The notes under the pieces are model-generated. The model saw nothing but the letters and a program-made list of their open reading frames with translations, did no database searches and was not told the origin of the DNA. A program made the position numbers and the translations under genes. Positions 10,200-53,126 of a stretch of DNA of 64,000 bases are shown here, in pieces; the stretch's first letter is position 1; each line of letters opens with the position of its first letter. This DNA is from Yuukianura sp. NJ FZ-2021 (lineage: Eukaryota): NCBI GenBank assembly GCA_046563655.1, contig CM102283.1, forward strand, positions 4,836,001 through 4,900,000, given 5' to 3'.

Positions 10200-10593
10200 A
10201 ACCACTTCCGGTAACAGATTTTTAAGTAGTAAGCTACATCAATTAATAAAATTAATATATTTTCGCTGAATTTATTAGGATTGGTTTAATGAAGTGCGTT
10301 TTAACTGAATTTTTCGAGAATTGGATTAAATCCGGCTTTTATCGCTGCTTTCATTACGTTTTGCGTATGTATATAATATAGTGTTTTGGTACTGTCGTGC
10401 GTTCCCCCCATAAATTTCCTGTGAGTATTTTCCTCCAGAGTTACCTCCAGCAGCAGCTTGACACGCGTCCTCGACCGAAGCGAGAAGTAACTTATGGATT
10501 CTTTCTGGGGATTAGTCAGCTCCTCCTATACTGAGGTAAAACCGCCGCCGCGCCGCCGTCCAAATTCAATTCACGGACAAATTCTGTTGTTTG

Positions 10594-10875
10594 CACTGGT
10601 GCTAATTGAGAGACGCCGCTCTTTTGAGAGCGATCGCTCTTTAGAAGAGCGGCCACAAAAATTTTCTGAAAGAGCGGGCGGGAGCGGAGCGAAGCTAAAA
10701 ATTGATGAAGAGCGGCGCTCTTCGCTCCGCCCGCTCCTATGTTAACTTATGAGAGAGCGGGCGGTCGTTAAAGTTTTTTGACCGCTCTGAGCAGAGCGGG
10801 AGCGATGCGGACGAGGGAGCGGAGCGGTAAAATTTGTTGCAGCAGTTGAGCGGCGCTCACTCAATTAGCACAGTG
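10594..10875. mobile_element. Non-autonomous DNA transposon (MITE) with ~28-bp TIRs and 8-bp TSD, in the 5' region of the NDUFB1 locus
   Basis: Left end cactggtgctaattgagagacgccgctc versus reverse complement of right end cactgtgctaattgagtgagcgccgctc. gttgtttg flanks both sides (10586-10593, 10876-10883). The interior is rich in gagcgg subrepeats. Confidence 0.9.
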
Positions 10876-10971
10876 GTTGTTTGCCTTCCAATTTTAAATT
10901 TTATAGGGTAATCAATAATTAAATCGTTGTGAAGTCATCCAATCGTTTTTCAGTTGAGGTCTTGTTCCTTG

Positions 10972-11218
10972 ATGGGTGGTGTAGCCACTTGGAAAAGATA
11001 TCGACCTTCCATCATCTTCCCAGTCATTTGCTTTGGTCTGATTATCGCAGATTGGAATCACACTCGGAAGTGTAAGTCTGGTCTATGTCTGGTCTAGGTG
11101 CTCAGTCAGTTCATATTTAGCAATCTAGATTTTAAAGTAAGTAAGGAATGTTTCTCTATTGGCAGGGAAACTTGGCAAGGCAGCTGAAGAACGGCGAGCG
11201 GGACAGGTTACTGCATAA
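10972..11218 (+). CDS. Spliced 50-aa single-pass membrane micropeptide, join(10972-11071,11166-11218); absent from the ORF track
   Basis: MGGVATWKRYRPSIIFPVICFGLIIADWNHTRKWKLGKAAEERRAGQVTA*. The gtaagt donor (11072) and cag acceptor (11165) join in frame. A hydrophobic segment is flanked by basic residues. Confidence 0.7.
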
Positions 11219-11322
11219 GTGCACCTCTTTGGTAATATTTACTATTAGTACTAGCTTTGATGCTGCAACTTTTAGTTCCGGAGAACTTAACTTATAAATT
11301 AATGATTTAATTTGCTAGAACC

Positions 11323-11532
11323 ATGGTAAAGGTCAACATCTTCGGCTTCAACATCAAGATGATCCCATTCTTCGGAATCATCGCAGCCTGTGGGTTGGTT
11401 GGCAAACAATTCGATAATCACGAAATGCTACGGTCTGCCAAGTACAGAGATAAATCTGCGCTTTTCGGAGGAAACAGGAAGCCTGGAGATCCGCCGTCCT
11501 GGGGCCCGCCAGATCCGAGAGAGCAGTTCTGA
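11323..11532 (+). CDS. NDUFB1: NADH:ubiquinone oxidoreductase subunit B1 (MNLL) homolog
   Basis: 69 aa with one TM segment followed by the RDKSALFG...PPSW motif typical of invertebrate MNLL. Strong aaccATGG context just after a ctag acceptor. Confidence 0.88.
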   Translation: MVKVNIFGFNIKMIPFFGIIAACGLVGKQFDNHEMLRSAKYRDKSALFGGNRKPGDPPSWGPPDPREQF

Positions 11533-12854
11533 TTTCTTTACATGGTTACTAATTAGTCAAAGCAACAAGATGAACGTAGTCGTCGAACTTAGCCAAGACC
11601 TTCTGTAGAATTTGTGCGAAGAGTAAGACTTTCCTTGTGTAAATTACACTATTCGCCGAGTTCGGAATGTTTTTTTTTATTCATTCAATTAATTTACCGT
11701 AGTAGTGCACACATCCTTGGGCTAGATACGCTGCTTTTAAAGTTGTAAGCAGTAAATAATCAGTGGTGAAACTATGAAAGTTATACTGTGATCCAAACGA
11801 TAACGTTAGCTTGGTTTATTCGCAACTCAGTCACCTTAAACGAAATGTCCAGGTCAATTTGGTCCGCAAACAGTTAACAATATCAACGTAGTTTATTAAA
11901 GTGCAATTTACTTTAATAGATACGCATTTACCTTACCATAGGTCTCTTACAATCTTGAGACTTTCGCTCTTGCGGTCGATTAAGGTTTTCTTCTGATTGG
12001 ACTACCCTGGTGATGGTGCTTGGCGACGACGACCGTGTGAAAGCGCAGCTTAAGAAGCAAGAGGACGAGGGCTGAATGTAGCAGAGCGGACTCGTAGTAG
12101 TTTCCGCTATGCCAACATCTTGCCTCTCCCTAATTGCTCAATTGATGATGCTGTTCTAAAACCTGAGAAGGTGAAACTAGAGTGGAACAAAAGGTTGAGC
12201 AGGAACTGAAGAACGATGAGATCACTTGGATCCCAACTGAAGAAGTTTTTCTTCTGACGCCTCACAATGACTTGGCCATGACAAGGGGAAGTGAACTTGC
12301 CCTGCAGCAGATCACTTGTCCAAAAATATCCGAGTCAATATTGACATTTCTCATCTTTCTACTCTTATCCCCATCTCAAATCAAACAAAACATAAAAACA
12401 CAGTTAAAAGTTGACCATACTTTTCACAGGCATCCTGTGAAGCTTGGGGCCGGGCATTTATGAACGTTACAACGTTTGTACCTAACTAATGGAAGTACAC
12501 GGATTGACTCATCCATACTTGTTGACATAGTTTCACATACATTCGTTTGTAGGTAAGTCCGCTATACCATACTAAAAGACATAAAGGTCCACACAGTTCC
12601 GTCCAGAAACCTCCTACATTCAGCACATGCTTAATTGAAATTCCTTAGCGTGAGAAGGAACAAGCAGAGTATTCATAATGTTGACGGTTTACTCATATTT
12701 AGTTTTGATATTAAAACAGCACAAGAAGGAAAGTATAAAAGCGTTTAGTTGATGCTCTCATCGATCTCAGCGGAGCGATCAAAATAATCGAAGAAAGTGG
12801 ACGAATATCGTCCTGATTGATTGGCTTGTCTTTGGTGACGATTAAGTCTTTGGT

Positions 12855-15800
12855 TTAGTCGGGAGACGAGGAGAGCGTTGATTGGCGCAGCAATCCCTTG
12901 GCCTTGTATTTCTCCAGCGCATTCTGAAGACGTGTCTCCGTTTCGAAAAATTCCACTAGTGGCTCCTGTGTCAGAATCGATGCCACGAACTGCTCAAAAC
13001 TGATTTCCCAGTCGTCACTTCCAGTACCAAGTGGAAGCTACGAACAAAAAAGTTTGAACTTGGTTAAAAATGTTTAATATCATAAAATATTTCAATTTGA
13101 TTCGTTTTCACCTCCAATTTGGACCTGTCGCCACCTTGACAGTCGGGAATCTTTTGAGTCGCTTCGGCGCCGGAAGCGGGATTCTTAAATCGGTTTCTGA
13201 CGTCTCCCAGCCGAATCAGCAGAGTTCCGACACTAACAATGGAATGATAGGCTTCTTGCTCATTCTTCTGCTGAATGAAAATGTCGTAAAAGGACTTCCA
13301 CATGGCAATGAAGTGCGGCTGATCCATCGGAGGTAGCGGTGAGCCAACACTGAGCATGGATTCTCTCAATCCACGAAGTGTAATCAGCCTCTCTTCTCTT
13401 CCCTTGCTGTCCTCATCTATTCAACACAGTTAACATGTTAATCGTTAGCAAATAATTGCTTTTGGTTCATAATGTTTTGTTACCGGGAGTTGGTCCTCTC
13501 AGAATGGACACTACCGATGATGAAGTTGATCTCTCTTCGCAAGCATCATCGGCCTGAAGATTGAAGAATTCGGAAGCCTCTGTCGCAATTTCAGCAGAAC
13601 TTTCTTCTAAAATTTTATAAGACACGTGAGAATGAGAAGGCAAGTGAAAAATTAAAAATAACTGTTTAAAACTATAAGTTACCGGGTGACGTCAAATCTT
13701 GTTCAGTCGTGTTCAGCAGAGGAGGGAGATGGAGGGAGTAGAACAGTCGCAGACGAAGCGTCGATTCTCCATGCGTCGTGATACCAAGGATATGAACAAG
13801 GTCACTAAATTTCATGTAGCCATCTCCATCATCATCGAAAAACTACAGATAAAAGTGTAGGTTAAATTCTTTTCGAGAAAAATGGGATGAAAAACTTACA
13901 GTGAATAGGCGCTGAATGAGCGGATGAAGGTTGGGATTTCCATTATTCGCCCAAGGACTGAATGCCATGAACGCTGCTCTGAATTGCTCCAGATCCAGCA
14001 GTTGGTATTGGAGATACCCATTGGCACCGTTGCCACTTCCCTTTTCTTCTGGCACGCCTAGCCCTGCCGCCACTTGCCAAATATGGTCGCACCGAACAAG
14101 CAAAAACAGTTCCTGGACTTCATCGGCACTAAACTTCGTCCTGTCCAACGACACCGTTCGAAGAGCATTCCGCATCGCAGTGTCTTCCAAGGTTTGAATG
14201 ACACGAAGACGATGTTTGAGACGGAGCGTAGCAATGTCCGTTGCTTGCAGAATAGTATCAAACCTGCGATATGATTCGAAGATCAGCGTGGAGATGGCAA
14301 TAGACCGCTTCTGGCTGCCTAGTCGTGTCTTGGGTCCCACAGGCAGTGATGAAGGAAGCATGTGCAGCACAATATCGTTTGGACTGGGTGCTTTTGTTAG
14401 ATCTTCTCCAATGTCAATGAGAGAGTCCTGCACAAGGTAGATTCCAGAAAGGTAGTCTGATAATAGCTGCATTGCTTCACCCTCATCCGAGCAACGAAGC
14501 AATGCATCTTCATTAAGCTCCAGAATTGTTAAGGCCACTTGAAAAATTACTTTGGCGCCTTCGTAGAAAAAACTGGAAAACAAAGAGTTTTGTAAGGTAA
14601 AATTCACAATTCCTTTGTAGTTAATTTCGATTCCATGAAATTGATAAATCAAATCTCTTACCAGTCCATGATGCAGACGGCGGCGTCAAACGACATGACA
14701 CTATAACAGAATCACCGACATTATTAACTTGACCTTTTCATTATTATTATTAATATTATTGCATATTTATGTGGCTAATCTAATAGTATAGAAAATTGAA
14801 ATGTTCTACTCGAGTCCTACCTTAGAAACAGTGTTAGGAACCAGGACAGACAAATCATTCCGATCATGTTGAGTTTAGAGAGGTGGGCGTGGACCTTGGG
14901 TAAATGCTTCTCCATAAGTTCATCCATCACATTTTGATCCACCATGGCACCGACCACCTTCCGATTGTAGTAGTCTGGCAGCAGTCTCTCACAAATCCCC
15001 ACCAAGAGCCAGAAAGATTCTTCTTCACTGCAGTAGAGCAGCAGCACGGAAGCAACCATGTTCATTGCCTAATTTTCAAACAGACTTTCATAAAAATGAG
15101 TTGATGTTGAGATTGATGTGATCGGTCAGACTCGTGAGTCTTATTACCTGGCAGTAGCCAATGTGTGGATTTCTGGAGGCGTACGCACACAAAACACGAC
15201 GTAGAGCACCTAGTCCAACTTCATGATGAAAAGCGGGGTGTTCTGGCAGAGAGCGATGAAGATCCCGCTCGATTTCTTCGTTCGCTTGACACTTCTTTCG
15301 AACTGCCCCTTCCACGAATTCTGCGTAGCGTCCGTGGTGAATGGCCAAGTCGTTTGAAGCACCCGAGAAAATTAGCCAGATTTCGGAACGGAGCTTGTCC
15401 GGTACACCTCGCAAAATCAGTTCAGTCGTCTCTGTTGTTCTGTAAATGGAAATCCCACGCCCAAACTCCTCAAAGTGCCGACTCCACTGACGCTCCGTCT
15501 CTTGCTCTCGCTCGAGAATGTCTCCATGAACTGGAAGCGGAAACAGTTCCATCAAGGGTTCATGGAGGATTCCATCTTCATCTTCAAAAATAAAAAAAAA
15601 CAGTAAAAGCGATGATTTCAAAAACGTAAATAAAAAAAATACAATCAGCACAAAAAAAACAACAAATCTATAAGAACGCAAATAAAAAAATGCCTCACAA
15701 TTTTTTCGTCGTTCGCCTTCTCCAGTTCCAGTTTCCAGCAGGATAAAACTGTTGACAGAGCTGGACAAACTGGAGGACACTCTGCGAAAAATATGCAAAA

Positions 15801-17613
15801 AGATAAACAAGTTAAACAAAATACTTAGAAATACATACAACCATATTATTTTTTGGCTGATAATTGTCATACGGAGATTTCGGTGTAGACGTTTTCCACA
15901 GAAGTTCGGACAGCTTCTGTGACAGGAAATCTCGGTCCTCGAGTTGTGTAAGGAGGAAGGACGATTTGTGTTTCATGGTGAAGAGGAGACTTGTGGCGTC
16001 TGATGTACTCTTTTCGATGACCTGGACTTCACGAAGTGGGATAACTAGGTCAACCAGTCTTGGAACCTGGGTGATAATCCAATGTTAGCAAGATTATTTT
16101 CATGACCAAGTTAAGTATTATAACAGTTTCGATAATTGATTTTTTGAAAGTTACTTTGCTTTTGAAGCAGACGTAATTGTTTGACAGGTAGAGTGTCCCC
16201 TTGGGCTCTCTTTTATTGTAAGGTGTCCAGAGAGCACACTGAGTCCGTCCATCCAGTTTTTCTTCAGCGGGTAATCTGAAAATGTTTCTGTAAGCCTCGG
16301 ACTCTGCACGCGCATCAATGTCCCGTTTCAGCACTGACGCTTTCTTTGGAACGTTTTTGCTGGATTTACATAACAAGTCTGGATCCTCACGAAAACTCCT
16401 CTCATCCATAAGCCTACATAATCAGAGAACTGTGTTGCATCGAATCTCTCAAGTAAATTCCAGGTTTTGGTGATTTCTTACTGTCTCATTGCGAGATTGG
16501 CAAGTTGTGTCATTAAGTTAAACGTTTCAGACTTTTTGACAAACATGGAAAAGTGAAACTGAAAATAGAAACAAATTGTTGATTAGATACAACAATTCTA
16601 AGTTCTCAGCATCTTTTATATTTTACTTCACCTGTCCTTCTCGTGTGGAAACTTGTATGGAATCTGGAAACACGAATGAGTTGATCGTGTCAAGTCCGGT
16701 GACGTCTGTCCATCGCAGTTTTATCTTGGTCTCCTTGCCAATCAGGTAGGAATAAAATGAAAGATGAGAAACACTCAGGTACAGCCACCCCTGCCTCGGA
16801 AGACTCCCTTTCCAGTAACTACAACGATAGCCAATACAATTTCGAATGTTGTGGGCTGGCCAACGTATTGCATAAACGTGAGCTGCTTACCTGCAGGAAT
16901 AAAAATTAACCAATTTCTCTTGTTCAGGAAAATTAAAAATCTTGCGAAATCGGTGAGAGCAGGCGCGAAACGATTCACTTTCGGCATCTACACAAATTAG
17001 AAAACAATTTTTTCGTTATAATTTGGTGCTAAATGGAAAATAGTCTGAATTTAATTGAATTAACCTTCAGCTAAATCAGATTTTGGCTTCAAATCTGCAA
17101 CAAGGGATTCAATTTTGCATTTGACAAATTCAGTAACTTGTTCTTCATTGTCGAAGTTGTAGAGAGTGTTCATTAAATTCTTTTCTATCCAGGCCCAGTC
17201 TTGTAAAATCTCTCTTTGTGTCAGAGAACACGCAATAACTAAAGTAAGAAAAGAGAGATTTTCAAGTGAAAAATAGTCTTGTTTTCATTCTTATTAGAAG
17301 GCGTACGGTAATAAACTTCGGAGTTTGGCGTTTGATGCAGGATTCGGTATGGGGGCGGTTTCGTATCAAGAACGGTGTCCAAAGTCCGGACCAGGATGGA
17401 ACCGATGTTCTTTTTCCGATTGCCATGACCTCTTCTCTGTTGTAACACGAAATAAGTATTGGCTTGTTCGGGAATCCTGTGTCATGAATACGAATATGAA
17501 TATCCATATAATTTTAAGGCAGAATAAAATAATTGTAGCTTATCATTTTAAAGAAATGTTTCACTTTACCAAAAAGTACCGGGCATAAGAATCTCTTCTG
17601 GCTTTACCCACAT
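12855..17613 (-). CDS. TBC1D9: TBC1D8/9-family Rab GAP (GRAM, GRAM, TBC, EF-hand), multi-exon
   Basis: Starts MWVKPEEIL. Contains [49 protein letters not shown], and C-terminal [23 protein letters not shown]. Canonical splice sites link the ORF pieces. Confidence 0.93.
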
Positions 17614-19031: not shown

Positions 19032-21105
<2,074 letters not shown>

Positions 21106-50144: not shown

Positions 50145-53126
50145 TTACTTAGTCATTTCATTACACGTACATCTTACATTAATTCCCTTGACGGGTTGTA
50201 GTATTATTGACATTGAAGAAGAAACGGGAGAAGAGGCGTCGTGTTCCTTTTCTTGATTATTGCCGCTGCTAGTTTTCAACTTGCCAATGATGACCAGGTT
50301 CACTTGTTCAAGAATCTCCTTCTGTTTGGAATCGTACGGAAGAAAGCATGGCAGTTGATTATGTTCAGCTCTCAAACCCATTTCGTAAAATTCTTCAACT
50401 TTGGCAAACCAGGAAAAGTCCAGCTTTATTTTTGAAGCATGGCCCATTTTACTTTCTTTCACGATCCCCTTCGTATAGTAGTTCTCCTTGAAATGCTGGT
50501 TTGCAATTGCATAGAATGATTCAGGAAGCCTCTTATGATCTTGCGGTGCCAGGTTAATAAATGTTTCATACGCAGAAATAACATCATCTGTACTTGAAGT
50601 CTCACCACATCTCATGTGTACTGCTTTGATGTAGGACAGCTCAACATCATTTGGAAATTGCTTCAATGATTTAACGGATTCACCTAGCCCTTCATCAAAT
50701 TTTTTCAGAAAACAAAGCAAACTTGAATAGAGATGGTGAAATGCAATCTCCTCAGGGTATTTTAGTTTTGAGCACTTAACAAAATGAGTGCATCGTACCA
50801 AATTGTCGAAGTTCATGTAAGCGTAACAGATTCTGGCGTTGCGGTCCAGATCCGAAGTTTCTGTTGGAGGAATTGACTTCAGAACGGTGTCTATAATTTC
50901 GCTTAAATGTTCCCTAAGCCTCAGTGGTAACCGCACCACCGTCTCTTCACGCCGGAAACTCTCGGCAAACTCATAAATCATTTGCTGTTGGAAATTTTGT
51001 GACGACCGTGAGCTCTGATCTACGAGTATGCGCGACCCTCTCCCAAAATGTTTCATTGTTCTTAAAATCGTTCTCGCCGTTTCAGAACGATTTGCAAAGC
51101 TTTCTATTTCGCGGTAATCAAACTTATTTCCTGTGGACGACTGCATTGGAGTTGAGCTGTCTTTTCGACAACGTGAGTAGATATTGTTGCTGGTATCGCT
51201 TAAACGGACGATGTCAGGAGCAATAGCAGCCATCATGTTAGTTGCTCTTTCCTTTAAGTTAAGGCCACGGGAATCGACTCCAGTGATGAACTCATGATTT
51301 GCCACTTCTTTTTCAAGTGCTAAACTATGCATCTCTAGTACTTTTAATTTTGCTTCAAAATCAGCAGCATTAAGTTGGGCGGGAAGGTATTCGTGTTTCA
51401 CTGCGAGGTTAAAGTACTCCCGAGCCTCTTCCGGATCCCCATGATTCAAAAAGCAATTTGCCAAGGTGTGCATTGCACGGACATTGCCTTGTGATGCTGC
51501 TAACTTCAAATAGTGTACTCCCTTTTCAGGATCCAATAAATCTCCCCGCCCAAATAGGTGCATTATCCCTAAATTATTGGACGAGGTATGACAACCAAGA
51601 TCGGATGCTTTCTTATACCAGATAGCAGCCTGATGCCAGTCTTCTTTTACTCCAGTTCCTTCTTGATAGGCTAGCCCAATAGCATGTTGGGCTTCCACAA
51701 CGCCAACGTTTGGAATGTCACCAATCCAAACAGGCTGTGAAGCAGCGTCATGCATCAGGTTGAGTGACATTTCAAAATTTTGTTTTACTCCGTTTCCATG
51801 CATATACATGACTGCTAAGTTATAAATTCCTTCGGCATTACCCAATGCAGCAGCTTTACGGAATAATAACGCTGCCCGATTATAGTCTCCACACTCCAGA
51901 CAGATCAAATGTGCCTGACGGACTTCACTTGTACCCGGTATTAATTTTTCCGTAAGTTTTGATTTGATTTCGGAGAATTGTTTGGCGGCAGCATCGTCTT
52001 TCAAGCCTTTCATAATTCTTATTTTTTGGAGAAACTCTTGTTCAGTAGGTAGCATTTTAAATGGATCAAGGTGCTCCTGCCTTTCATACTCACCAAACTT
52101 CACACGACAAATGTCTCTAGCTGTTATTAGATCTGGTCGAGCAGGACAGAAGCCAAGGGCTGAGTCGTAATATTCCAAGGCTTCGCTAAACTTTTCCAAA
52201 GCCATATACGCGTTTGCGGCGCGAAAGTAACCTCGGTACCAAGTTCTGTTTAAATTCACTGCTTCTTTTGCGTCTTGGAGGGCTAGGTATACGTACTCTA
52301 CATCAATCCGAGTCGTATCTACTTTTGACATTCCAAGATGAGCGGTCGACCGGTTGGAGTACAGAATAGCCAGCTCTGTTGCGGGTAATCCTGGCAGCGA
52401 TATGGCCTTTGTGTACATTTTTACAGCGTCAATGTGCTTACCTTCCCTGTAAGCCGCATTTCCATCCTCTTTTAATTTCTCCGCTTTAGCGATGCTCGCC
52501 ATTGCGTCTGGCTGTGACACATCTTCCACCAATTCGTTGACGTCAGCAATACAGCCTCCAAAAAATTCTAAAACTGGTACTGCTTTCTCCCACCAAGTTT
52601 GGAACAAGTCATCTTCAATGTGCATGGAAGGATGATGGTATAAGAAATTTCTGACTTGCTTTATGACCTCAAACATTTGGCGCTCCTCCTTGAGTCTTGA
52701 ATCGTTCGCCCACCTTTTAACACGTATGCGAAGTAATACATCAATTAACAGGGGTGTATCCCAGCGATTTACATCTCCTGAGTCAAGTGCCTCTTTCTGG
52801 ATGACCATTGAGTTCTTATAAAGTTTTTTTCCGCGTCCTTTGATGAATAGGGTTGCGGTTTGAGTGGTCCAATCTTGGCCAATCTCATCTCTCCATCGTT
52901 GCAAGAATAATGCTCGAAGATACTCATTCACTATGTGCAGCAAATTGCGGATCTTTGTGAAGTTTGACTGCTCGTTCTAACGTACACGAAGTAAGTACGG
53001 GTTAATCATTTTTATTTTTTTTAGTTGTGTTTTTATTTGACAATTTGGCAAGGTTTAAGAATTGATAAATTTACCATTTCTTTATGCTTCCACGTTTGAA
53101 AAATATGTAATTGAGAAGCTTACCAT
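50145..53126 (-). CDS. DZIP3-type HEPN domain + TPR + Sel1 repeats + TPR-like protein; ~2.8-kb exon after an ATG-only coding exon (ATG at 53126 or 53077)
   Basis: N-terminal WDTPLLIDVLL...IKQVRNFLYHH (R-x4-H). TPR: LKEDGNAAYREG...LYSNRS. Sel1: GNAEGIYNLAVMYMHGNGVKQN, AQHAIGLAYQEGTGVKED. The acceptor near 52978 extends the ORF in phase 0. Confidence 0.85.

What the first reader, a model, noticed from the sequence alone, without database searches (positions are those of the whole stretch)
10954..11532. Hidden bicistronic locus: a spliced 50-aa membrane micropeptide 17 nt upstream of NDUFB1
Seen: ATG 10972 opens an ORF that crosses a canonical intron (11072-11165) in frame and gives MGGVATWKRYRPSIIFPVICFGLIIADWNHTRKWKLGKAAEERRAGQVTA*. 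A second intron (11232-11318) starts 13 nt after its stop and lands 4 nt before the NDUFB1 ATG. I see no polyA signal between the two ORFs. The first ATG has a weak -3 context (cttgATGG) and the second a strong one (aaccATGG). Known: bicistronic small-ORF pairs for respiratory-chain proteins exist in animals (Drosophila sloth1/sloth2). Inference: one mRNA yields complex I subunit B1 and an uncharacterised single-pass, probably mitochondrial, partner by leaky scanning or reinitiation. The ORF track misses it because it is split and short.
Basis: partly seen in the sequence, partly recalled or inferred. Interest (0 to 1): 0.78.

Follow-up and report, generated by a model that had tools for sequence, protein, structure and literature searches.

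The report
Known upstream micropeptide ORF on NDUFB1 mRNA
The two-gene message is real: one spliced mRNA carries a conserved 50-residue membrane-helix peptide just ahead of complex I subunit NDUFB1, but this pairing was already described across arthropods in 2008 and the peptide's function is still unknown.

Summary
Every coordinate checks. One error-free RNA contig lies on 10964-11071 | 11166-11230 | 11318-11377, so both introns are removed and the two ORFs sit on one RNA. A contig from a second study confirms intron 1.

ORF2 is NDUFB1/MNLL. ORF1 belongs to a conserved family of 44-73-residue proteins with the motif FP..(C)FG.I.ADWNHTRKWK. An exhaustive search gave 5 hits and a profile search 33. 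No Pfam family or solved structure matches.

A diverged metagenome relative, L002, keeps ORF1, the same phase-1 intron and NDUFB1 downstream. dN/dS for ORF1 is 0.23.

In both species no ATG in any frame lies between the two start codons. The first start has T at -3 and the second has A, which fits leaky scanning.

It is not new. Hayden & Bosco 2008 (PMC2276209) list a 54-residue conserved-peptide uORF with this motif on Drosophila CG18624 (ND-MNLL). They found both ORFs on single ESTs from flies to ticks.

The peptide's role is open. It is not a modelled chain in the fly complex I structures.

The parts
10950..10955 (+). Initiator-like TCAGTT, a possible transcription start (A at 10952).
   Evidence: It is the only TCA[G/T]T[C/T] match in 10800-10975. 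The RNA contigs begin at 10960 and 10964. The start itself is inferred, not shown. An in-frame TGA at 10930 closes the ORF1 frame upstream.
10972..11071 (+). ORF1 exon 1: the start codon, 33 codons and 1 base. It encodes the basic N-terminus, the hydrophobic helix and the motif up to ADWNHTRK.
   Evidence: RNA contigs from two studies cover it. Homologues were found with it.
11072..11165 (+). Intron 1: 94 nt, GTAAGT..CAG, phase 1, between the K and W of ..HTRK|WK..
   Evidence: Spliced out in contigs of X1 and X2. L002 has an intron at the same position and phase. Database proteins P0028 and P0037 were predicted straight through this point: P0028 reads ..HTRKCK.., as the unspliced window does.
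11166..11218 (+). ORF1 exon 2 coding part (..WKLGKA.. tail) with the TAA stop at 11216-11218.
   Evidence: The WKL.KA tail matches L002 and family members.
11219..11231 (+). First 13 nt of the 17-nt intercistronic spacer.
11232..11318 (+). Intron 2: 87 nt, GTAAT..TAG, lying inside the intercistronic spacer.
   Evidence: Spliced out in X1 record 1. L002 has no such intron: its spacer is 46 nt and colinear with the genome.
11319..11322 (+). Last 4 nt of the spacer (AACC), which give A at -3 of the NDUFB1 start codon.
11323..11532 (+). ORF2: NDUFB1 / MNLL subunit of complex I, 69 aa plus stop, in a single exon.
   Evidence: - Its two database relatives, at 58% identity, both carry PF08040.
- The L002 orthologue scores 41.2 bits against PF08040, whose cut-off is 27.
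- A profile of the four sequences hits NDUFB1 chains of fly complex I (8ba0_f, 8b9z_f, 8esw, 8esz) at E about 2e-12, and mammalian ones too.
- The window's own protein alone reaches only 17.3 bits.
11533..11556 (+). Start of the 3' UTR, as far as RNA contigs reach.
   Evidence: X2 record 4 reaches 11556. Candidate poly(A) signals lie at 11751 (AGTAAA) and 11895 (ATTAAA). The true RNA end is not shown.

Best explanation
This is the orthologue, in this unidentified arthropod-like genome, of the dicistronic ND-MNLL (NDUFB1) gene known from Drosophila to ticks.

One short mRNA is made and both introns are removed. It probably starts near the TCAGTT at 10950. The mature RNA has a leader of about 20 nt, then a 50-codon ORF1, a 17-nt spacer and the 69-codon NDUFB1 ORF.

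ORF1 encodes one long helix. It has a basic N-terminus, a short hydrophobic core with a conserved Pro, and the near-invariant ADWNHTRKWK motif at the end of the core. The charged tail that follows varies between species.

Ribosomes reach NDUFB1 mainly by leaky scanning:
- the first AUG sits close to the cap and has a pyrimidine at -3;
- no other AUG in any frame lies in the 170 nt before the NDUFB1 AUG;
- the NDUFB1 AUG has A at -3 and G at +4.

Both products are made, and the strength of the first AUG sets their ratio.

My odds for the separate steps:
- one mRNA carrying both ORFs, and orthology to the CG18624 uORF-mORF pair: 0.93 (shown);
- leaky scanning rather than reinitiation: 0.6 (inferred);
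- the ORF1 peptide works as a membrane peptide in trans, not only as a translational brake: 0.6 (inferred);
- it acts in the mitochondrial inner membrane, in complex I biogenesis or a linked process, without being a stable subunit: 0.35 (inferred).

The overall confidence of 0.8 is for the core statement: a dicistronic orthologue of the known pair, with both ORFs coding.
For: - One RNA: a single error-free RNA contig joins ORF1, both splice joints and the start of ORF2. A second study confirms intron 1.
- ORF2 identity: it is NDUFB1.
- ORF1 family: 5 hits at E 8e-6 to 3e-4 in an exhaustive search of 1.84 billion proteins. A profile search gave 33 proteins among 63 candidates. They include RefSeq 'uncharacterized protein LOC...' entries of Hemiptera, bees and a butterfly, and one nematode protein at E 3e-3.
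- Conserved residues in the 32-row alignment: I, D and H are invariant, and P, W, N, T, R and K are present in at least 90% of rows.
- Prior description: the fly CG18624 uORF printed by Hayden & Bosco carries ..FFPT..SIYADWSHTRQWK.. (Additional files 1 and 2). Their Bombyx uORF closely resembles my family member P0032 from Pararge. They report Ka/Ks of 0.11 for the uORF and 0.06 for the main ORF, with both ORFs on one EST as far out as Boophilus.
- Independent check in L002: ORF1, an intron at the same position and phase, and NDUFB1 downstream. ORF1 has dN 0.28, dS 1.22 and a ratio of 0.23. ORF2 has dN 0.29 with synonymous sites saturated.
- Leaky scanning: there is no ATG between the two starts over 170 nt in the window and 193 nt in L002. 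Shuffles give no ATG in 4.8% and 1.6% of trials. The -3 base is T at ORF1 and A at ORF2 in both species. Spacers are 17 and 46 nt. The same logic was tested by reporter assays for sloth1/sloth2 (passages of PMC9681215).
- Peptide features: the N-terminus is net positive in 30 of 32 rows. AlphaFold2 models a single helix over residues 10-66 at mean pLDDT 85. The tail after the motif varies from 3 to 25 residues, so the stop codon position is not conserved.
Against: - Nothing here shows translation of either ORF, or where the peptide goes.
- The RNA evidence is assembled contigs at low depth, not long reads. The 5' end is not mapped. A minor NDUFB1-only transcript cannot be excluded.
- The AUG-free stretch is only modestly improbable in each species.
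- In L001 the homologous ORF has A at -3, and an ATG lies in its spacer, so the leaky-scanning layout is not universal.
- 19 of 32 family rows contain an internal Met.
- The hydrophobic core is short, about 13-15 residues.
- The family profile matches no chain in any solved structure, the fly complex I entries included. That argues against a stable subunit.
- No Pfam family matches consistently among the 32 rows scanned, so no function can be transferred by homology.
Confidence: 0.8

Rival explanations
1. ORF1 is purely a cis-acting conserved-peptide uORF. Its nascent chain or its mere translation throttles NDUFB1 synthesis, and the released peptide has no job of its own. This is the framing of the 2008 paper.
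For: - It sits upstream on the same mRNA.
- Peptide-level conservation is what defines such uORFs, and Hayden & Bosco file it as one (abstract and Table 1 of PMC2276209).
- For sloth1, translation of the upstream ORF does lower the downstream one (passages).
Against: - Conservation is concentrated in a hydrophobic helix and a mid-peptide motif. The C-terminal tail varies from 3 to 25 residues and the stop position is not kept. From general knowledge of stalling uORFs, that is unlike peptides that stall at termination.
- Lengths of 44-73 residues and a membrane-helix look are typical of microproteins.
- RefSeq lists members as proteins in their own right.
- L001 shows a member followed by an ORF that is not recognisably NDUFB1.
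Confidence: 0.2
2. ORF1 and NDUFB1 are ancient paralogues kept on one transcript, like sloth1/sloth2. ORF1 would then be a second MNLL-like single-helix protein.
For: - By language-model features, a full-length family member (P0014) is nearest to two NDUFB1 (PF08040) clusters, at 0.91 and 0.90. The exon-1 peptide gave one such cluster at 0.83.
- Both proteins are short single-helix proteins with a Pro early in the helix and an Asp at its end (alignments).
Against: - The profile-profile comparison of the two families gave probability 0.3% with 1 aligned column.
- ORF1 lacks the RDKSxLF motif of NDUFB1.
- The atlas hits share 158-164 of 256 features, below the 170 typical of true family members. 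The tool itself says the family is 'probably wrong', because only 4 of the 10 best hits agree.
- No member of the 32 rows hits PF08040.
Confidence: 0.1
3. The mRNA is dicistronic, but NDUFB1 is reached by termination-reinitiation after ORF1 rather than by leaky scanning.
For: ORF1 is short and ends just before the NDUFB1 start, 17 nt away in the window and 46 nt in L002. Hayden & Bosco discuss reinitiation for insect uORFs (passages).
Against: - Those same passages cite work showing that reinitiation falls off for uORFs longer than about 34 codons. ORF1 has 48-50.
- From general knowledge, a 17-nt spacer leaves little distance to reload initiation factors.
- The AUG-free interval and the weak-then-strong contexts in two diverged species are what leaky scanning predicts.
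Confidence: 0.2
4. Two separate genes. NDUFB1 has its own promoter, and the bridging contig reflects rare read-through or an assembly join.
For: The evidence is assembled contigs at low depth. The tool warns that a contig across two genes does not show a single transcript.
Against: - The joint 11231|11319 lies 13 nt after the ORF1 stop and 4 nt before the NDUFB1 ATG, so any read across it carries parts of both.
- There is no room for a promoter and no AATAAA or ATTAAA between the ORFs.
- Single ESTs carry both ORFs in 8 arthropod species (Additional file 2 of PMC2276209).
- The linkage is kept in L002.
Confidence: 0.05

Closest known systems
Conserved-peptide uORF of Drosophila melanogaster CG18624 (ND-MNLL), transcript FBtr0071140 (Hayden & Bosco 2008, BMC Genomics 9:61, PMC2276209)
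   Same: - Same peptide family: hydrophobic FFPT.. core followed by IYADW(S/N)HTR.WK, as printed in Additional files 1 and 2.
- Similar size, 54 against 50 residues.
- Same place, upstream of NDUFB1 on one mature mRNA.
- Same sign of purifying selection: their Ka/Ks is 0.11, and mine is 0.23 against L002.
   Different: - This is another species.
- Here the ORF is split by a phase-1 intron, and a second intron lies in the spacer. I could not see the fly gene structure.
The match was read by eye and through the Bombyx/Pararge link.
sloth1/sloth2 bicistronic gene of Drosophila (Bosch et al. 2022, eLife 11:e82709, PMC9681215)
   Same: - Two single-helix small ORFs sit on one mRNA with a spacer of a few nucleotides.
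- The upstream start has a poor context and the downstream start a good one.
- The downstream product belongs to the respiratory chain. Leaky scanning is supported there by reporter assays (passages).
   Different: - The sloth peptides are distant paralogues and act on complex III. Here the two cistrons show no detectable relation.
- The downstream product is a structural complex I subunit.
- The upstream peptide has no known function.
NDUFB1 / MNLL family (Pfam PF08040), for ORF2
   Same: A single helix followed by the ..(F/Y)RDKSALFGG.. motif and a PSW end. The profile hits NDUFB1 chains in solved fly and mammalian complex I.
   Different: The window's own protein alone scores below Pfam's cut-off, 17.3 against 27 bits. 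It has a longer N-terminus (MVKVNIFGFN..) and a short C-terminal extension, both shared with L002.
Small single-pass inner-membrane proteins such as SMIM20/MITRAC7, SMIM12 (UPF0767), SMIM4 (UPF0640), ATP synthase subunits j/k and COX6C
   Same: Size and single-helix look. They appear among the nearest clusters by language-model features, at 0.78-0.87.
   Different: All are below 0.9, which the tool rates as leads only. No Pfam model of these families matches any of the 32 rows. I do not file ORF1 under any of them.

Membership tests
CG18624-type conserved-peptide uORF (Hayden & Bosco 2008) | Peptide with the hydrophobic F-P core followed by I.ADW(N/S)HTR.WK | tested here: met
   The window's exon 1 plus the junction gives ..IIFPVICFGLIIADWNHTRK|WK... 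The same motif runs through the 32-row alignment and appears in the fly, mosquito, silkworm, locust and tick uORFs printed in the paper's Additional file 2. The comparison with the paper's sequences was by eye.
CG18624-type conserved-peptide uORF (Hayden & Bosco 2008) | Lies upstream of the NDUFB1 ORF on the same mature mRNA | tested here: met
   X1 record 1 spans ORF1, both splice joints and the start of ORF2. L002 keeps the same order.
CG18624-type conserved-peptide uORF (Hayden & Bosco 2008) | Amino-acid sequence under negative selection (Ka/Ks well below 1) | tested here: met
   Nei-Gojobori, window against L002: 47 codons, dN 0.277, dS 1.22, ratio 0.23. dS is near saturation, so the ratio is rough.
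CG18624-type conserved-peptide uORF (Hayden & Bosco 2008) | ORF1 is translated | not testable with these tools
   No ribosome profiling or proteomics was on hand. Translation is inferred from conservation only.
NDUFB1 / MNLL (PF08040), ORF2 | Match to the Pfam model above its gathering score | tested here: inconclusive
   The window protein scores 17.3 bits against the 27-bit cut-off, E 0.0038. Its L002 orthologue (43 of 68 residues identical) scores 41.2 bits. Both database relatives carry PF08040.
NDUFB1 / MNLL (PF08040), ORF2 | Sequence relation to NDUFB1 chains seen in solved complex I | tested here: met
   The profile of alignment A3 hits 13 distinct NDUFB1 sequences. The best are the fly chains 8ba0_f and 8b9z_f at E 2.3e-12 and 2.7e-12.
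Paralogous bicistron of the sloth1/sloth2 kind | The two cistrons are related to each other | tested here: not met
   hhalign of the ORF1 family (32 rows) against NDUFB1 (4 rows) gave probability 0.3%. The NDUFB1 alignment is shallow, so a very distant relation is not excluded. The atlas lead scored 0.90-0.91.
Paralogous bicistron of the sloth1/sloth2 kind | Weak upstream and strong downstream start context, with a short spacer | tested here: met
   The -3 base is T then A in the window and in L002. Spacers are 17 and 46 nt, with no ATG in between.
Stable accessory subunit of complex I | Present as a chain in solved complex I of an organism that has the gene (Drosophila) | tested here: not met
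   The ORF1-family profile found 0 chains at E up to 10 in the whole PDB copy. The same copy holds fly complex I with its NDUFB1 chain. An unmodelled or lost peptide is not excluded.

The most novel reading that the evidence does not exclude
The ORF1 peptide is an ancient inner-membrane microprotein, found in arthropods and nematodes. It acts transiently with NDUFB1 during assembly of the distal membrane arm of complex I, and that is why it is absent from the finished enzyme. Its amount relative to NDUFB1 is fixed by leaky scanning on a shared, AUG-free mRNA. It would be an unrecognised complex I assembly factor. Every ND-MNLL knock-down in flies would then be a double knock-down.
Probability: 0.2. 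Interest if true: 0.6.

Novelty: already known. Interest (0 to 1): 0.3.

Why it matters
The gene arrangement is in print, so the value here is confirmation and some added detail:
- direct splice evidence in a further species;
- a conserved phase-1 intron;
- the AUG-free interval that points to leaky scanning;
- a probable extension of the family to nematodes;
- the finding that the peptide is not a modelled chain of fly complex I.

Practical consequences, all inferred:
- RNAi or transcript-level perturbation of ND-MNLL removes two proteins at once.
- Annotation pipelines that allow one coding sequence per mRNA will list only one of the two. RefSeq lists ORF1 homologues as 'uncharacterized protein LOC...' in several insects. 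I could not check whether NDUFB1 is then missing in those species.

In the library I could search, a peptide kept from flies to ticks for hundreds of millions of years still has no assigned function.

Tried and rejected
- **Word-index search with exon 1.** The 40-residue stretch 10951-11070 found no candidate. The exhaustive search later did find relatives.
- **Pfam on ORF1.** Nothing for ORF1 itself or its first five homologues. Over all 32 alignment rows, only scattered single-member chance hits appeared; the commonest was TPR_21, in 2 of 32.
- **PDB profile searches with the ORF1 family.** One meaningless hit at E 0.46, then 0 hits.
- **SMIM12/UPF0767.** The idea came from an atlas lead at 0.81 and a resemblance by eye. 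I read passages of the MitoAtlas preprint. No Pfam support followed, so I dropped it.
- **Complex prediction of NDUFB1 with the exon-1 peptide.** Verdict 'no answer', score 0.00 in both runs. The alignments were not used and the controls were not run. This is neither for nor against binding.
- **L001 downstream ORF (156 aa) as a divergent NDUFB1.**
  - hhalign aligns its helix region to the right part of NDUFB1, but at probability 0.25%.
  - BLASTP gave E 3.7.
  - The PDB and Pfam gave nothing.
  - Left open.
- **Metagenome loci.** 18 stretches matched the pattern and 5 passed tblastn. Only L001 and L002 are true members. L003, L004 and L005 lack the NHTRKWK motif. L004 lies beside a bacterial-type transposase ORF.
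- **Insect OXPHOS 'NRG' element (TTAYRTAA).** 8 matches in the window against 6.3 expected, none near the locus (passages of PMC2241641).
- **Upstream coding exon.** ATG 10494 with a donor after 10535 would be in frame with 10954. There is no RNA cover. L002 and the window both begin MG.V at the proposed start. An Initiator-like TCAGTT explains the 'cag'. Not adopted.
- **Literature on the peptide.** The searches turned up only Hayden & Bosco 2008 for this uORF. They cover only the held library. FlyBase and UniProt could not be consulted, so a later gene name or study may exist.
- The search of earlier findings (closed), the listing of cluster members (switched off), the look-up of encoding contigs (closed, not called), and no whole genome is held. 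Hence I could not look downstream of the 31 other family members for NDUFB1.
Full report
**1. What is in the sequence**

Reading 10400-12400 and listing ORFs confirms every coordinate in the finding.
- ATG 10972 opens a frame that meets GTAAGT at 11072.
- Intron 1 ends in CAG at 11165.
- The frame goes on from 11166 to TAA at 11216-11218.
- GTAAT at 11232 opens a second intron, which ends in TAG at 11318.
- Four bases later (AACC), ATG 11323 opens a 69-codon ORF that ends at 11532.

It also gave a 17-nt spacer in the mature RNA. No AATAAA or ATTAAA lies between the ORFs.

**2. Is it spliced and on one RNA?**

Laid on 10300-12100, they give the following.
- Run X1, record 1 (233 nt, no mismatches) lies on 10964-11071, 11166-11230 and 11318-11377. 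Its joints are GT..AG and skip 94 and 87 nt. One contig thus holds the ORF1 start, both splices and the first 55 nt of ORF2.
- Run X2, record 3 (158 nt, one mismatch) shows the 94-nt joint independently.
- Two other contigs cover ORF2, to 11533 and 11556.

Limits:
- These are assembled contigs at low depth.
- Nothing covers the sequence upstream of 10960.

I think transcription starts there, which would give a leader of about 20 nt. This is inference.

**3. What ORF2 is**

- Alone, ORF2 scores below Pfam's cut-off for MNLL: 17.3 bits against 27.
- Its two database relatives, at 58% identity, both carry PF08040.
- Its orthologue in locus L002 scores 41.2 bits.
- A profile of the four sequences hits 13 distinct NDUFB1 sequences in the PDB. 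The best are the Drosophila complex I chains 8ba0_f and 8b9z_f, at E about 2e-12.

ORF2 is NDUFB1.

**4. What ORF1 is**

Because spliced sequence may not be typed into tools, I searched with exon 1 alone (33 residues, P0001).
- The word-index search found nothing.
- The exhaustive HMMER search of 1.84 billion representatives found 5 proteins of 53-65 residues, at E 8e-6 to 3e-4 and 62-72% identity.
- All five read ..DWNHT(R/M)(K/E)(W/Y)K.. (four of them ..HTRKWK..) straight across the point where the window has intron 1. This independently supports the splice and the frame of exon 2.
- A profile of these found 33 proteins among 63 candidates. Most come from metagenome or transcriptome assemblies.
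- The 33 also include RefSeq 'uncharacterized protein LOC...' entries of Lycorma, Homalodisca, Colletes, Osmia, Xylocopa and Megachile. A Habropoda hypothetical protein and a Pararge aegeria protein are there too.
- At E 3e-3 there is a protein of the nematode Rhabditophanes.

I left P0028 and P0037 out of the alignment. They look like predictions made straight through the intron: P0028 reads ..HTRKCK.., just as the unspliced window does. The remaining 31 hits plus P0001 make the 32-row alignment A2.

In A2:
- I, D and H of the motif are invariant, and P, W, N, T, R and K are present in at least 90% of rows.
- The N-terminus is net positive in 30 of 32 rows.
- The tail after the motif varies from 3 to 25 residues.
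- AlphaFold2 models one continuous helix over residues 10-66, at mean pLDDT 85.
- No Pfam family matches consistently.
- No solved chain matches.
- Language-model neighbours are small mitochondrial single-helix proteins, with NDUFB1 clusters on top at 0.90-0.91 for a full-length member. By the tool's own criteria these are leads only.
- A profile-profile comparison with NDUFB1 is negative, at probability 0.3%.

**5. Linkage elsewhere**

A pattern scan of metagenome contigs gave 5 loci from 18 pattern matches. Three are spurious.

L002 is a 15.5-kb genomic contig of a diverged relative. It has:
- an ORF1 of 48 codons, starting MG.V like the window's;
- an intron at the same position and phase, after ..RTRK;
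- a colinear 46-nt spacer with no second intron;
- an NDUFB1 ORF of 68 codons.

Between the window and L002, ORF1 shares 29 of 47 aligned residues, with dN 0.28, dS 1.22 and a ratio of 0.23. ORF2 shares 43 of 68, with dN 0.29 and synonymous sites saturated.

L001 is a 1155-nt contig that holds an intronless ORF1 homologue. A 156-codon ORF follows 63 nt later, and I could not identify it.

**6. How ORF2 is probably reached**

- In the mature RNA of the window, the next ATG in any frame after 10972 is the NDUFB1 start, 170 nt on. In L002 the same holds over 193 nt.
- Base shuffles of these intervals lack an ATG in 4.8% and 1.6% of trials.
- The first start has T at -3 and the second has A at -3, in both species.
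- With a probable short leader, a 48-50-codon first ORF and a 17-nt spacer, leaky scanning is the better fit. Reinitiation is the rival.
- This is the logic that reporter assays supported for sloth1/sloth2 (passages of PMC9681215).
- L001 does not follow the pattern. It has A at -3 of ORF1 and an ATG in its spacer.

**7. What is already known**

A search for the fly gene number found Hayden & Bosco 2008, BMC Genomics 9:61 (PMC2276209). I read its abstract and outline, passages of the text with Tables 1, 2 and 4, and passages of Additional files 1 and 2.

The paper lists a 54-residue conserved-peptide uORF on transcript FBtr0071140 of CG18624, the MNLL subunit gene.
- Ka/Ks is 0.11 for the uORF and 0.06 for the main ORF.
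- Both ORFs occur on one EST as far out as the tick Boophilus microplus.
- The printed uORF peptides are from D. melanogaster, D. willistoni, Anopheles, Aedes, Bombyx, Locusta, Boophilus and Amblyomma. They carry the same hydrophobic F-P core and the (Y/F)ADW(S/N)HTR.WK motif, or variants of it in mosquitoes, locust and ticks.
- The Bombyx peptide is plainly the counterpart of my family member from Pararge.

The arrangement is therefore in print, under the label 'uORF', with no function given to the peptide. My searches of the held library found no later study of it. FlyBase and UniProt were not available to me.

**8. What the peptide does**

This is not shown. Three points argue for a peptide that works in trans:
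- conservation sits in a membrane-type helix and a mid-chain motif, while the tail and the stop position drift;
- members are annotated as stand-alone proteins;
- in L001 one member sits before a different ORF.

One point argues against a stable complex I subunit: the family profile finds no chain in the fly complex I entries that do contain NDUFB1.

My best guess, at about one in three, is an inner-membrane microprotein that acts in complex I biogenesis or a linked step. A purely cis-regulatory uORF remains a fair rival at 0.2.

**9. Verdict**

The novelty claim fails: this is another orthologue of a gene arrangement described in 2008.

- splice-level RNA evidence in a new species;
- the conserved intron;
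- the AUG-free interval;
- a probable reach into nematodes;
- the absence of the peptide from solved fly complex I.

Noticed in passing
window 10599-10871: A 273-bp element bounded by 15-nt inverted ends (GTGCTAATTGAGAGA / TCACTCAATTAGCAC, 93% complementary). It has an inner 18-nt palindrome at 10677-10737 and repeated GAGCGG motifs, and looks like a miniature inverted-repeat transposon just upstream of the locus. Its end sequence occurs only once in the window.
   Followed up: partly
L001 46-231 and 295-765: An intronless ORF1-family gene (61 aa) is followed 63 nt later by a 156-aa ORF. That ORF has a presequence-like N-terminus, one hydrophobic helix and a charged coiled tail, with no Pfam or PDB match. 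hhalign places its helix region on the matching part of NDUFB1, but at probability 0.25%. It could be a very divergent, extended NDUFB1 or an unrelated second cistron.
   Followed up: partly
proteins P0028 (90 aa) and P0037 (91 aa): Both look like database predictions that run on past the conserved motif into unrelated sequence. P0028 reads ..HTRKCK.., as the unspliced window does. The phase-1 intron after ..HTRK therefore seems to be shared by further species.
   Followed up: no
protein P0038 and the nematode cluster: The family seems to reach nematodes. A Rhabditophanes protein hits at E 3e-3 with a perfect DWNHTRKWK motif. An atlas cluster of 55 members of about 51 aa, mostly nematode, is the closest or second-closest neighbour. 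The 2008 paper reports the uORF only within Arthropoda. Whether it is linked to NDUFB1 in nematodes is unknown.
   Followed up: no
window 10494-10535: An ATG-led 14-codon stretch ends at a GAG|GTAAAA donor-like site. It would be in frame with 10954 if spliced there. There is no RNA cover, and the TCAGTT at 10950 gives a simpler reading. Probably chance.
   Followed up: partly
window 13846-15972 (-), 20515-21102 (+), 50148-52976 (-): The neighbouring open frames are ordinary eukaryotic genes: a RabGAP-TBC domain, a SecY/Sec61-alpha exon, and a 943-aa uninterrupted Sel1/TPR-repeat protein.
   Followed up: no
fly literature: Published ND-MNLL RNAi experiments in Drosophila target an mRNA that, by the 2008 paper, also carries the uORF peptide. 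Their phenotypes may therefore reflect loss of both products. This is inference. The preprint does not mention the uORF in the passages I saw.
   Followed up: no
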